A stretch of 64,000 bases of DNA, from the NCBI RefSeq assembly GCF_030384885.1, contig NZ_CP128613.1, one strand, 5' to 3'. The position numbers are program-made. Each line of letters starts with the position of its first letter. The stretch's first letter is position 1. Origin of the DNA: Escherichia coli. Lineage in GTDB: Bacteria > Pseudomonadota > Gammaproteobacteria > Enterobacterales > Enterobacteriaceae. Of the stretch, positions 35,901 to 38,900 are shown piece after piece.

Positions 35901-38900
35901 AAGAAGTACGTATACTCAACCAGTTTTTTAAAGCCTGAACTTCTTTGTTCAATAGCGGGTGCGTTGTTGAAAAGCCTTTTTTTAATCGATGGATATAGAT
36001 ACACTTTGCCTTAAGATCAATATCCGAAATCCTCAATCGGCAAATTTCACTCGCCCGGAAACCATGAATAAAACAAAGCAAAGTCAGACAATAATTACGT
36101 GCTGCATGAGGCCCGGTATTTGCTGCTTTAAGGAGTGACTCGATTTCACTATGGGTCAGGAAGTTCCTTTTTTTGTTATCAGCCTTATTCTTCATCGTTT
36201 TCCCTTATAATTACAGACGCGCACTAGCTGTGCTGGGTTAGCAATAATCCAACATTTTAATCCTGATTATGTTTATAAAAGCGAACGTTTGCTTAATAAC
36301 TAACGTAAGTGGACCAGTTCTTCTGAGTGAACTTAAATGGAGTAGCGATAGTTACTTATAATAACTTTGCCATACAAACGCCATGCTCTTGCATGCTATG
36401 TACCTTTATATATTTATCAATGTGATACGAATCTAATAATAACCCTCATCATTAATGCAACTAATCTTATCTATATATCATGTGATATGTTCTGTAACAA
36501 GTAAAATCAACATAAAAAATTCAGCAAAATTTAATATTCGTTCAACTAGCCGTCTCACATATGACATTATTAGTCAACTGCATTTGCCACAAAATGGCTA
36601 TTTCATGGAACGCAGTAATTTCTTAGCGTCTATTATCATGCTAATTCTTAGGTCTCTAGCGATTATTCCTGCCTGGTTCGTCAGCTTACGCCATGAGATT
36701 GCTACATTCCTTTTTATCATGGAGATATGGGGGAAAGCAGGCGACGCTTTTTCATCTACATTCATTGGTAAATATGGCTTTGGTCACTACGCCTTAAACC
36801 TTCTTCAATCACAGCTATTCGCCGGGCGATACGGCAAACAAACTAAGTGAAGCATCATCCTGAAAACACCAATGCGTACTGAACATCAACAAGCCTCTCC
36901 TGATCGACTTCAGAAGTGACCAGTTACAAGCCACAAACCTGGAAACATATTTCATGATGAGAATTATGCTCAGCCTGATGGCGGGTAAACACTTATTTTC
37001 ACCACGCTCACTGAGTTAGCTTGCAAAGCTTTCCTTGTTTAGATTCTAAATAAATTATCTATAAAACAGATAGTTAAAAGAAAATCTTTAGTTTTTGAAG
37101 ACCACCGCAAGTGTTCGTCTGGCTTCACATGGCATCTTCCTCTTAGAAAAAGATCGACATATTTTGTGACACGAATTGCAAATCTGGTTTTGTTGTATGG
37201 ATTGCGTGATTTTTGATCTGGTATAACAGGTATAAAGGTGCACCACGATAGTCAATGAGACTGGGCATCTCGAAATCTATGGCAAACATCACTGCAGTTC
37301 TTTCACATCGGGTGATGAAAATGCACTTCAGTCTGAAAGGAATATGAAAATGAGATCAACAGACACTCTATTTTATGACTCTGGGTAAAATGGATTGAGT
37401 AAGTGATATAGCTTACGAACATTCAAATCAATCAAACATCAGAAGAGATTTTATACTCAGGTATTTAATCTGGATCTCTGTTTATTTAAATAATGTGGAA
37501 AGAGATTTTTCACAGGAGACATTATACAAAAAATATAAAATACAGCTATCGGTTGCCAAAGACACTATAAGCCTGGCAAAAAATATTACACAACATAAAT
37601 GCTAATTGTTTATGCGGGCTTTGTATTGCTTTCTGTATCCTACAAATGAGTGAAATTTATGAAAAAGGCTAAAATACTTTCTGGCGTATTATTACTGTGC
37701 TTTTCGTCACCATTAATTTCTCAAGCTGCGACACTGGACGTACGTGGTGGATATCGTAGTGGAAGCCACGCCTATGAGACTCGACTCAAAGTCAGTGAGG
37801 GATGGCAAAATGGATGGTGGGCAAGCATGGAAAGTAATACCTGGAATACCATTCATGATAATAAAAAGGAAAATGCCGCACTCAATGATGTTCAGGTTGA
37901 AGTTAATTACGCGATTAAACTTGATGATCAATGGACGGTGCGCCCGGGAATGTTAACGCATTTTAGCAGTAACGGCACACGCTACGGACCCTACGTAAAA
38001 TTGTCCTGGGACGCGACAAAAGATCTTAATTTTGGCATTCGCTATCGTTACGACTGGAAAGCTTACCGACAACAAGACTTATCCGGTGATATGTCTCGTG
38101 ATAACGTTCATCGTTGGGATGGATATGTCACTTACCATATTAATAGTGATTTCACCTTCGCATGGCAAACGACGCTATACAGCAAACAAAACGATTATCG
38201 CTATGCAAACCATAAGAAATGGGCGACGGAAAATGCATTTGTTCTACAATACCATATGACGCCTGATATTACGCCATACATAGAATATGACTACCTTGAC
38301 CGTCAGGGTGTTTATAACGGCAGAGATAATTTATCAGAAAACAGTTATCGCATTGGTGTGTCATTTAAACTGTAGTAGACAGGAGACAGTCACAATGAAT
38401 AAAACAATAACGGCGCTTGCTATCATGATGGCTTCATTTGCCGCAAATGCGTCTGTATTACCGCAAACTCCGGTGCCATTTAAAAGTGGTACCGGAGCAA
38501 TTGATAACGACACTGTCTACATTGGTTTAGGTAGCGCAGGTACGGCATGGTACAAGCTGGATACACAGGCCAAAGATAAAAAATGGATAGCGTTAGCTGC
38601 ATTCCCTGGTGGGGCGAGAGATCAAGCAACCTCTGCATTTATTGATGGCAATCTGTACGTATTTGGCGGCATTGGCAAAAACAGCGAAGGCTTGACTCAG
38701 GTATTTAATGACGTATACAAATACAACCCCAAAACCAATAGCTGGGTTAAATTGATGTCACACGCGCCGATGGGTATGGCGGGTCATGTGACTTTTGTAC
38801 ACAACGGCAAGGCTTATGTTACTGGCGGTGTTAACCAAAATATCTTTAATGGCTATTTTGAAGATCTCAACAAAGCTGGAAAAGATTCAACCGCTATAGA

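What the first reader, a model, noticed from the sequence alone, without database searches (positions are those of the whole stretch)
36196..37658. Long AT-rich fimB-nanC intergenic region with a NanR-type GGTATA operator
Roughly 1.45 kb of non-coding, AT-rich DNA separates the divergent fimB and nanC genes. GGTATAACAGGTATAAAGG at 37220-37238 matches the NanR repeat motif, consistent with sialic-acid-responsive control of both nanC and fimB recombinase expression. The 131-aa ORF inside this region (36455-36850) is probably not a gene.
Basis: partly seen in the sequence, partly recalled or inferred. Interest (0 to 1): 0.2.

Follow-up and report, generated by a model that had tools for sequence, protein, structure and literature searches.

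The report
Known fimB–nanC regulatory region, NanR operator
This is the well-studied 1.46-kb control region between the E. coli fimbrial switch gene fimB and the sialic-acid porin gene nanC; its NanR, NagC and SlyA binding sites sit where they do in K-12, so the finding is correct but ordinary.

Summary
Window 36196-37658 (1463 bp, 36% G+C against 48% for the window) separates divergent fimB (35593-36195, -) and nanC (37659-38375, +). GGTATA-ACA-GGTATA-AA-GGTGCA at 37220-37242 is the NanR operator. Its 27-nt core, TTGATCTGGTATAACAGGTATAAAGGT with the adjacent GATC, is identical to the nanA and nanX operators. The published K-12 NagC operators match exactly at 37158-37180 and 36946-36968. The SlyA operators lie at 36633-36659 with one substitution. 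A divergent Escherichia genome is 78.5% identical across the spacer but 96.8% across the NagC1-NanR block. The 36-nt operator segment is unchanged in 4506 of 4968 matching E. coli genomes. The 131-aa ORF lies antisense over the fimB promoter and SlyA/H-NS sites. It is broken in 6 of 12 sampled genomes, shows no third-codon-position bias, and has no Pfam match and no homologue outside E. coli, so it is not a gene. By the K-12 literature, NanR represses nanC and, with NagC, activates fimB from a distance; sialic acid reverses both. This is already known and of low interest. Minor extras: a rare spacer allele carrying 11 extra bases, and a conserved 14-codon uORF upstream of nanC.

The parts
36196..37658 (.). 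fimB-nanC intergenic regulatory region (1463 bp, 36.2% G+C)
   Evidence: Bounded by fimB and nanC. G+C. Present at 80% or more coverage in 5020 of 5426 complete E. coli genomes, almost always with no annotated feature.
37220..37242 (+). NanR operator: GGTATA-ACA-GGTATA-AA-GGTGCA (two perfect repeats and one 4/6 repeat)
   Evidence: Identical in K-12-like L002. The 27-nt core is shared with the nanA and nanX operators. The 36-mer 37210-37245 is 100% identical in 4506 of 4968 matching genomes. Repeat definition from PMC3658417 and PMC8012715.
37215..37218 (.). GATC (Dam site) 1 nt from the first NanR repeat
   Evidence: Invariant in the nanC, nanX and nanA operators. PMC5155068 reports that NanR binds within 5 bp of a GATC at all three operons.
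37158..37180 (-). NagC operator ONC1 ('fimB1', TGCAATTCGTGTCACAAAATATG on the fimB-sense strand). It overlaps a CRP-like TGTGA-N6-TTGCA at 37165-37180. A GATC at 37152-37155 lies just outside it.
   Evidence: Exact 23/23 match to the published site (PMC3098098 Table 1). GATC position. The CRP-like reading is my inference, from its alignment with the TTTAGTGAAGCAGATCGCATTA stretch upstream of nanA, which I take from memory to be the nanA CRP site.
37064..37076 (+). IHF-like site AAACAGATAGTTA (one mismatch to WATCARNNNNTTR), at the midpoint between ONC1 and ONC2
   Evidence: The strict consensus gives no hit in the spacer. That IHF binds midway between the NagC sites is from my memory of Sohanpal et al. 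2007; only that paper's title was seen here.
36946..36968 (-). NagC operator ONC2 ('fimB2', CATAATTCTCATCATGAAATATG on the fimB-sense strand). Its centre is 212 bp from the ONC1 centre.
   Evidence: Exact 23/23 match (PMC3098098 Table 1). 21/23 conserved in divergent L003, inside a poorly conserved stretch.
36633..36659 (-). SlyA operators OSA1 (36633-36644, exact) and OSA2 (36648-36659, CTAGAGACCTAA against K-12 CTAGGGACCTAA). They overlap sites H-NS2 and H-NS3.
   Evidence: Site sequences and their positions -167 to -194 relative to the fimB transcription start are from PMC3173223.
36472..36500 (-). fimB core promoter read by eye: -35 TTGTTA (36500-36495), 17-bp spacer, -10 TATATA (36477-36472). 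Transcription start about 36466.
   Evidence: Read from the sequence. The start position is computed from the SlyA site distances in PMC3173223. Positions 36467-36526 are 95% conserved in L003. This is an inference, not a mapped start.
36196..36466 (-). fimB 5' untranslated leader (about 271 nt)
   Evidence: Follows from the estimated transcription start. 92.3% identical to L003, against 78.5% for the whole spacer.
37243..37658 (+). Stretch between the NanR operator and the nanC ATG (416 nt), probably the nanC 5' leader. It contains a conserved 14-codon uORF at 37344-37388.
   Evidence: Positions 37301-37658 are 86.7% conserved against L003. It folds no better than shuffled sequence (z = -0.01) and has no Rfam match. 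The uORF is intact in 12 of 12 sequences.
36455..36850 (+). 131-aa ORF, not a gene. It is antisense to the fimB promoter, the SlyA operators and the H-NS sites.
   Evidence: Frame broken in 6 of 12 Escherichia sequences, including K-12-like, O157:H7 and L003. Substituted columns by codon position are 12/17/21. No Pfam match. Only E. coli hypothetical proteins of erratic length, 79-207 aa, are found as homologues.
36871..36881 (.). 11-bp segment AATGCGTACTG, present here and in strain 2013C-4282 and absent from the nine other E. coli sampled
   Evidence: Divergent L003 carries a related sequence (GTGTGCTG), so this is probably ancestral sequence deleted in most E. coli.

Best explanation
This is the E. 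coli nanC-fimB intergenic regulatory region, an allele of the one characterised in K-12.

Shown here from sequence:
- It carries, in the K-12 order and spacing, the fimB promoter and a leader of about 271 nt, two SlyA operators, NagC operator ONC2, an IHF-like site, NagC operator ONC1, and the NanR operator with its adjacent GATC.

Taken from the K-12 literature, not tested here:
- Without sialic acid, NanR dimers bind cooperatively to the GGTATA repeats. This represses the nanCMS promoter, which lies at the operator.
- From about 750 bp away, NanR also raises fimB transcription. NagC does the same when bound to ONC1 and ONC2, 212 bp apart.
- SlyA independently counteracts H-NS silencing of this AT-rich DNA near the fimB promoter.
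- N-acetylneuraminate releases NanR and GlcNAc-6-P releases NagC. nanC then comes on and fimB goes down, so fewer cells switch type 1 fimbriae from OFF to ON.

Inferred:
- The nanC transcription start lies at about 37234. This rests on homology of the 77-bp module (37163-37239) with the nanX and nanA promoter-operators. It leaves a leader of about 420 nt.
- The poorly conserved stretches 36660-36945 and 36969-37150 act as spacer.
For: - Flanking genes are identified by Pfam and RefSeq annotation.
- The spacer aligns end to end with a K-12-like spacer, and 37094-37247 is identical.
- The NanR operator is unique in the window and beyond chance.
- Its 27-nt core, including the GATC, is identical at nanA and nanX.
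- NagC ONC1 and ONC2 match the published 23-mers exactly (PMC3098098).
- The SlyA operators match (PMC3173223).
- Site distances from the estimated fimB start are 480-776 bp here and 11 bp less in K-12. This agrees with 'between around 760 and 470 bp upstream' (PMC3173223).
- Phylogenetic footprint against a genome 88.5% identical over 6 kb: the ONC1-NanR block is 96.8% identical against 78.5% for the spacer (binomial P = 5e-7), the fimB leader 92%, and the spacer segments 57-66%.
- Across the population, the operator 36-mer is exact in 4506 of 4968 matching genomes. In the one sampled O157 sequence (L008), the single change lies outside the repeats.
- Genomic SELEX puts NanR on this spacer (PMC5934670).
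- NanR and NagC activate fimB (PMC3173223, PMC5401889).
Against: - Nothing here measures binding or expression in this strain.
- nanR, nagC and slyA lie outside the window.
- The third repeat is degenerate (GGTGCA), unlike nanA and nanX (GGTATA).
- This allele differs from K-12 at about 4% of positions. The differences include one base in OSA2 and an 11-bp insertion between the fimB promoter and ONC2.
- The IHF site is only a one-mismatch consensus match in a variable stretch.
- Sources disagree on whether the NanR operator lies downstream of the RNA polymerase site (PMC8012715) or upstream of the putative nanC start (PMC3658417). The nanC start I give is therefore an inference.
- How NanR and NagC act on fimB over more than 600 bp is not settled in the papers I could read.
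Confidence: 0.93

Rival explanations
1. The 131-aa ORF (36455-36850), or its 81-aa C-terminal part that PGAP annotates as a hypothetical protein in strain 2013C-4282, is a real lineage-specific protein-coding gene. Part of the 'intergenic' region would then be coding.
For: - The frame is open in 6 of 12 sampled sequences, including B2 strains that carry an in-frame 12-bp insertion.
- RefSeq annotates WP_032193988.1 at 36605-36850 in the closest genome.
- 92 database proteins match the ORF.
Against: - The frame is broken by frameshifts or stops in K-12-like, O157:H7, L011, L012 and L013, and by several stops in divergent L003.
- Substituted columns fall 12/17/21 by codon position, with no third-position excess.
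- There is no Pfam family.
- Every homologue found is either named an E. coli hypothetical protein or unnamed, and their lengths run from 79 to 207 aa. That pattern fits gene callers translating the same non-coding DNA.
- The ORF lies antisense over the fimB promoter, the SlyA operators and the H-NS sites (PMC3173223).
- Most RefSeq genomes annotate nothing here.
Confidence: 0.03
2. The GGTATA repeats control only nanC. In this strain they have no cis effect on fimB, because the divergent allele (an 11-bp insertion, about 4% substitutions and a changed OSA2) uncouples the distant operators from the fimB promoter.
For: - Only 2 of 5109 matching genomes carry this allele at 99% identity or more.
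- The 11-bp insertion lies between the fimB promoter and ONC2.
- The mechanism of long-range activation is unresolved in the literature I could read, so its sensitivity to spacing is unknown.
Against: - All known operators are intact, and the ONC1-ONC2 spacing is unchanged at 212 bp.
- 11 bp is about one helical turn, so the helical phasing between the promoter and the operators is kept.
- From my memory of Sohanpal et al. 2007, moving the operators closer to fimB still allows activation, which suggests that spacing is tolerant.
- The fimB promoter and leader are highly conserved.
Confidence: 0.04

Closest known systems
E. coli K-12 nanC(yjhA)-fimB intergenic region (El-Labany 2003; Sohanpal 2004, 2007; Condemine 2005; McVicker 2011)
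   Same: - Same flanking genes and orientation.
- Same order of the fimB promoter, the SlyA operators, ONC2, the IHF region, ONC1 and the NanR operator.
- ONC1, ONC2, OSA1 and the NanR operator are identical in sequence.
- Same 212-bp ONC1-ONC2 spacing.
   Different: - About 4% substitutions.
- An extra 11 bp at 36871-36881.
- One substitution in OSA2.
- The 131-aa ORF is open here but frameshifted in K-12.
- K-12 has an extra GATC in the IHF region that is absent here.
nanATEK-yhcH operator of E. coli, (GGTATA)3 (Kalivoda 2003; Horne 2021, PMC8012715)
   Same: The 27-nt core TTGATCTGGTATAACAGGTATAAAGGT is identical, including the GATC. An upstream CRP-like element aligns with the ONC1 position.
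   Different: - The third nanA repeat is a perfect GGTATA; here it is GGTGCA.
- The nanA operator ends about 30 nt before the start codon; here it lies 416 nt upstream of nanC.
- The nanA operator has no known role in activating a divergent gene.
nanXY (yjhBC) promoter-operator
   Same: - It shares a 77-bp module (83% identity) with window 37163-37239.
[quoted passage not shown]
   Different: - The third repeat is perfect.
- The leader sequences are unrelated, and the nanX leader has no counterpart of the 14-codon uORF.
- nanXY is not in this window.

Membership tests
NanR (GntR-family) operator of the E. coli sialoregulon | Two or more GGTATA hexamers in direct repeat, separated by 2-3 nt (canonically three) | tested here: met
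   GGTATA-ACA-GGTATA-AA-GGTGCA at 37220-37242: two perfect repeats and one 4/6 repeat. Two repeats are enough for nanomolar binding (PMC8012715).
NanR (GntR-family) operator of the E. coli sialoregulon | Sequence identity with an experimentally established operator (K-12 nanC/fimB, nanA, nanX) | tested here: met
   Identical to the K-12-like spacer over 37094-37247. The 27-nt core is identical to the nanA and nanX operators.
NanR (GntR-family) operator of the E. coli sialoregulon | A Dam GATC site within 5 bp of the operator | tested here: met
   GATC at 37215-37218, 1 nt from repeat 1. The feature is described in PMC5155068.
NanR (GntR-family) operator of the E. coli sialoregulon | Evolutionary conservation above the background of the spacer | tested here: met
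   96.8% against 78.5% in comparison with divergent L003 (P = 5e-7). The 36-mer is exact in 4506 of 4968 matching genomes.
NanR (GntR-family) operator of the E. coli sialoregulon | NanR binding that is relieved by N-acetylneuraminate; nanR present in the same genome | not testable with these tools
   nanR lies elsewhere on the chromosome, outside the window. It is reported in more than 99% of E. coli isolates (PMC10088187). Binding needs EMSA or footprinting.
NagC operator pair (looping) | Match to established 23-bp NagC sites, with two sites present | tested here: met
   Exact matches to 'fimB1' and 'fimB2' of PMC3098098 at 37158-37180 and 36946-36968. The centres are 212 bp apart.
IHF binding site | Match to WATCARNNNNTTR with an AT-rich flank | tested here: inconclusive
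   No exact match in the spacer. There is a one-mismatch match at 37064-37076, at the ONC1-ONC2 midpoint. This stretch is the most variable among strains.
SlyA operators of fimB | Match to OSA1 TTAGCATGATAA and OSA2 CTAGGGACCTAA, 3 bp apart | tested here: met
   26 of 27 positions match at 36633-36659. The one difference is in OSA2 (PMC3173223).
Protein-coding gene (131-aa ORF) | Reading frame kept among relatives, excess third-position substitution, and homologues or domains beyond the species | tested here: not met
   Broken in 6 of 12 sequences. Substitutions fall 12/17/21 by codon position. No Pfam match.
Structured cis-regulatory RNA or sRNA in the spacer | Match to an Rfam family, or folding stability beyond shuffled sequence | tested here: not met
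   No credible Rfam match in 33000-41000 at E <= 1. The nanC leader gives z = -0.01.

The most novel reading that the evidence does not exclude
The 416-nt stretch between the NanR operator and the nanC start codon may be a functional leader rather than a passive 5' UTR. It is 87% conserved against a divergent Escherichia lineage, while the neighbouring spacer segments are only 57-66% conserved. It carries a 14-codon uORF (37344-37388) with a Shine-Dalgarno-like sequence, and that uORF is intact in all 12 genomes sampled. The leader could add a post-initiation control step to nanCMS expression, for example translation-coupled attenuation or an sRNA target. Separately, this rare allele with 11 extra bases might alter the distance-dependent activation of fimB.
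Probability: 0.1. Interest if true: 0.35.

Novelty: already known. Interest (0 to 1): 0.08.

Why it matters
[quoted passage not shown] That link was worked out in K-12 about twenty years ago. This window only confirms that a divergent E. coli lineage keeps every known operator. It adds a phylogenetic footprint that separates the functional islands from the spacer DNA. One question in this system looked open to me: how NanR and NagC activate a promoter more than 600 bp away. Sequence analysis of this window does not make that question any more testable.

Tried and rejected
- A genome-contig scan with NanC, meant to collect orthologous spacers from other species, returned only one E. coli-labelled genome (which proved usefully divergent) and a 462-bp fragment.
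- nanC homologues outside Escherichia were reached through protein search and contig look-up. One is 78% identical and sits inside a nanE-nanK-transporter-yhcH-nanC-nanM-sialidase cluster. Another is 63% identical and sits next to an ABC transporter operon whose products match ZnuA, ABC_tran and ABC-3. Neither has a GGTATA pair within two mismatches upstream, so cross-genus conservation of this operator could not be shown. The module appears specific to Escherichia.
- The primary papers (Sohanpal 2004, Kalivoda 2013, Condemine 2005) are not held in the library. Site sequences therefore came from secondary open-access sources, and some details come from memory and are marked as such.
- The strict IHF consensus gave no hit in the spacer.
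- An Rfam scan found nothing credible.
- The consensus promoter scan gave fewer hits than shuffled sequence and missed the fimB promoter. Its best hit is TTGGCA-16-TATATT on the minus strand at 37559-37530. That hit is not conserved in L003, and I rejected it as chance.
- Folding of the nanC leader showed no excess stability.
- I considered and rejected the idea that the ORF is coding.

Full report
**What is in the window**

The window around the finding is the E. coli fim/nan region, colinear with strain 2013C-4282. The order is fimH-fimA (minus strand), the fimS switch, fimE (34519-35115, -), fimB (35593-36195, -), a 1463-bp gap, then nanC (37659-38375, +), nanM and nanS. Pfam confirms fimB as a tyrosine recombinase and nanC as a KdgM-family porin.

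The gap, 36196-37658, is 36.2% G+C against 47.9% for the window.

**The motif**

GGTATAACAGGTATAAAGG lies at 37220-37238. It is the only GGTATA-N3-GGTATA in the 64 kb, even allowing one mismatch (0.17 expected by chance). The exact pattern GGTATANNNGGTATANNGGT occurred in none of 100 shuffles. Single GGTATA hexamers are at chance frequency (24 found, 19.8 expected), so the arrangement is what matters.

A third, degenerate repeat follows, giving GGTATA-ACA-GGTATA-AA-GGTGCA at 37220-37242. A GATC lies 1 nt upstream, at 37215-37218.

[quoted passage not shown] At least two correctly spaced repeats are needed for cooperative nanomolar binding of NanR dimers (PMC8012715). NanR binds within 5 bp of a GATC at nanA, nanC and yjhB (PMC5155068).

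**Comparison with the characterised K-12 region**

The spacer aligns end to end with a K-12-like chromosome at about 96% identity, and 37094-37247 is identical.

The two NagC operators published for fimB (PMC3098098 Table 1) match exactly: ONC1 at 37158-37180 and ONC2 at 36946-36968. Their centres are 212 bp apart.

The SlyA operators OSA1 and OSA2 (PMC3173223) are at 36633-36659, with one substitution in OSA2.

[quoted passage not shown] Just upstream on the minus strand I read TTGTTA-17 bp-TATATA (36500-36472). This leaves a leader of about 271 nt.

From that start, ONC2 to the NanR operator span -480 to -776 here, and 11 bp less in K-12. [quoted passage not shown]

A one-mismatch IHF consensus, AAACAGATAGTTA (37064-37076), lies at the midpoint between the two NagC sites. 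That fits my recollection that IHF binds midway between them (Sohanpal 2007; only the title was seen here). On sequence alone it is inconclusive, and the strict consensus gives nothing.

- *Across E. coli.* The spacer is present at 80% or more coverage in 5020 of 5426 complete genomes. The 36-nt operator segment (37210-37245) is 100% identical in 4506 of 4968 matching genomes and has one mismatch in 461. In the sampled O157:H7 sequence, the single change is at 37214, outside the repeats.
- *Against a divergent lineage.* CP089930 (L003) is labelled E. coli but is only 88.5% identical over 6 kb. It gives a clear footprint, shown in the table below. The NagC1-NanR block stands out at P = 5e-7 against the spacer background.
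- *Paralogous operators.* The same 27-nt core, TTGATCTGGTATAACAGGTATAAAGGT, occurs at the nanA and nanX (yjhB) operators. nanX shares a 77-bp module with 37163-37239.
- *Outside Escherichia.* nanC homologues in other genomic contexts lack the repeats. The module looks specific to Escherichia, which does not bear on its function here.

| Segment (window against L003) | Identity |
|---|---|
| fimB coding sequence | 95% |
| fimB leader | 92% |
| fimB core promoter | 95% |
| SlyA sites | 89% |
| 36660-36945 | 57% |
| ONC2 | 91% |
| 36969-37150 | 66% |
| ONC1-NanR block, 37151-37243 | 96.8% |
| 37244-37300 | 60% |
| 37301-37658 | 87% |
| Whole spacer | 78.5% |

**The 131-aa ORF (36455-36850, +)**

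- It begins 11 nt from the estimated fimB transcription start on the opposite strand. It runs antisense across the fimB promoter, both SlyA operators and the H-NS-bound region. PMC3173223 reports H-NS protection from about -500 to +150.
- Among 12 Escherichia sequences the frame is intact in 6. It is broken by frameshifts or stops in the K-12-like sequence, O157:H7 and three others, and by several stops in L003.
- Substituted columns fall 12/17/21 by codon position, so there is no third-position excess.
- It has no Pfam match.
- PGAP annotates an 81-aa piece in one genome and nothing in nearly all others.

**Mechanism**

*Shown here.* The sites are present, identical or nearly identical to the characterised ones, in the characterised order and spacing, and under purifying selection.

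*From the literature.*
- NanR represses the sialoregulon operons, and Neu5Ac weakens its DNA binding (PMC8012715).
- NanR and NagC both activate fimB from these distant operators. SlyA acts independently by displacing H-NS (PMC3173223; PMC5401889).
- Genomic SELEX finds the nanC/fimB spacer as the NanR target (PMC5934670).
- Sialic acid therefore turns nanCMS on and fimB down, which lowers OFF-to-ON switching of type 1 fimbriae.

*Inferred.* The module shared with nanX and nanA runs from a CRP-like or NagC site to the end of the operator, the extent expected for a promoter from about -70 to +5. I therefore place the nanC start near 37234, which leaves a leader of about 420 nt. Sources disagree on whether the operator is up- or downstream of the start (PMC3658417 against PMC8012715), so this needs mapping.

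**Other checks on the spacer**

There is no credible Rfam match. The nanC leader folds no better than shuffled sequence (z = -0.01). The consensus promoter scan gives fewer hits than expected from shuffles.

**Verdict**

This is a rediscovery of a well-characterised regulatory region, so it is already known and of low interest.

The features not already in the literature I could read are minor:
- A rare allele: only 2 of 5109 matching genomes reach 99% identity. It retains 11 bp, probably ancestral, that all nine other sampled E. coli lack.
- A conserved 14-codon uORF in the nanC leader.

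Noticed in passing
window 37344-37388 (+): A 14-codon uORF (MKMRSTDTLFYDSG), with the Shine-Dalgarno-like AAAGGAAT just upstream, lies in the 416-nt stretch between the NanR operator and the nanC ATG. It is intact and the same length in all 12 Escherichia sequences sampled, including the divergent L003 (MKMRSTNNPFYDTG). The nanX leader has no counterpart.
   Followed up: partly
window 34158-34471: The 314-bp fimS invertible element is flanked by 9-bp inverted repeats: TTGGGGCCA at 34158-34166 and its complement at 34463-34471. It has the same orientation as in K-12-like L002 and is inverted in L003. The promoter-like TTGAGA-18-TATGAT at 34423-34452 (+) points away from fimA, so the switch appears to be in the OFF phase in this assembly.
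   Followed up: partly
window 36871-36881: The 11 bp AATGCGTACTG are present only here and in strain 2013C-4282 among the 11 E. coli sampled. Divergent L003 has a related sequence, so most E. coli seem to carry a deletion. The insertion adds about one helical turn between the fimB promoter and ONC2. Overall this spacer allele is rare: only 2 of 5109 matching genomes reach 99% identity.
   Followed up: partly
L007 (NZ_CP184051.1, strain 1444), after the position equivalent to window 36883: A 148-bp tandem duplication inside the spacer duplicates NagC operator ONC2, giving that strain two copies.
   Followed up: no
L005 2477-2553 (upstream of nanX) against window 37163-37239: The nanXY promoter region shares a 77-bp module (83% identity) with the ONC1-NanR block. 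[quoted passage not shown] About 1100 genomes have this second copy. nanXY itself is absent from the window.
   Followed up: partly
L013 (NZ_CP195498.1, strain 20AR0300): An IS1A insertion or deletion has removed fimB and the first 260 bp or so of the spacer, joining gntP and a fimbrial gene remnant to the nanC side. About 80 genomes show this 82% coverage pattern or less.
   Followed up: no
window 41129-54499: Downstream of nanS and yjhR lies a block of island-type genes annotated in the colinear strain 2013C-4282: RelE/ParE-CopG and CbtA-YeeU toxin-antitoxin pairs, RadC, DUF932 and DUF4942. It leads towards tRNA-Leu(CAA) at 54415-54499 (-), presumably leuX, which is a known integration site.
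   Followed up: no
window 39566-40546 (+): The 326-aa nanS ORF is intact in the window. PGAP annotates only a partial 'sialate O-acetylesterase' pseudogene at the same place in the closest genome and in K-12-like L002. This looks like an annotation-model artefact rather than a real disruption.
   Followed up: no
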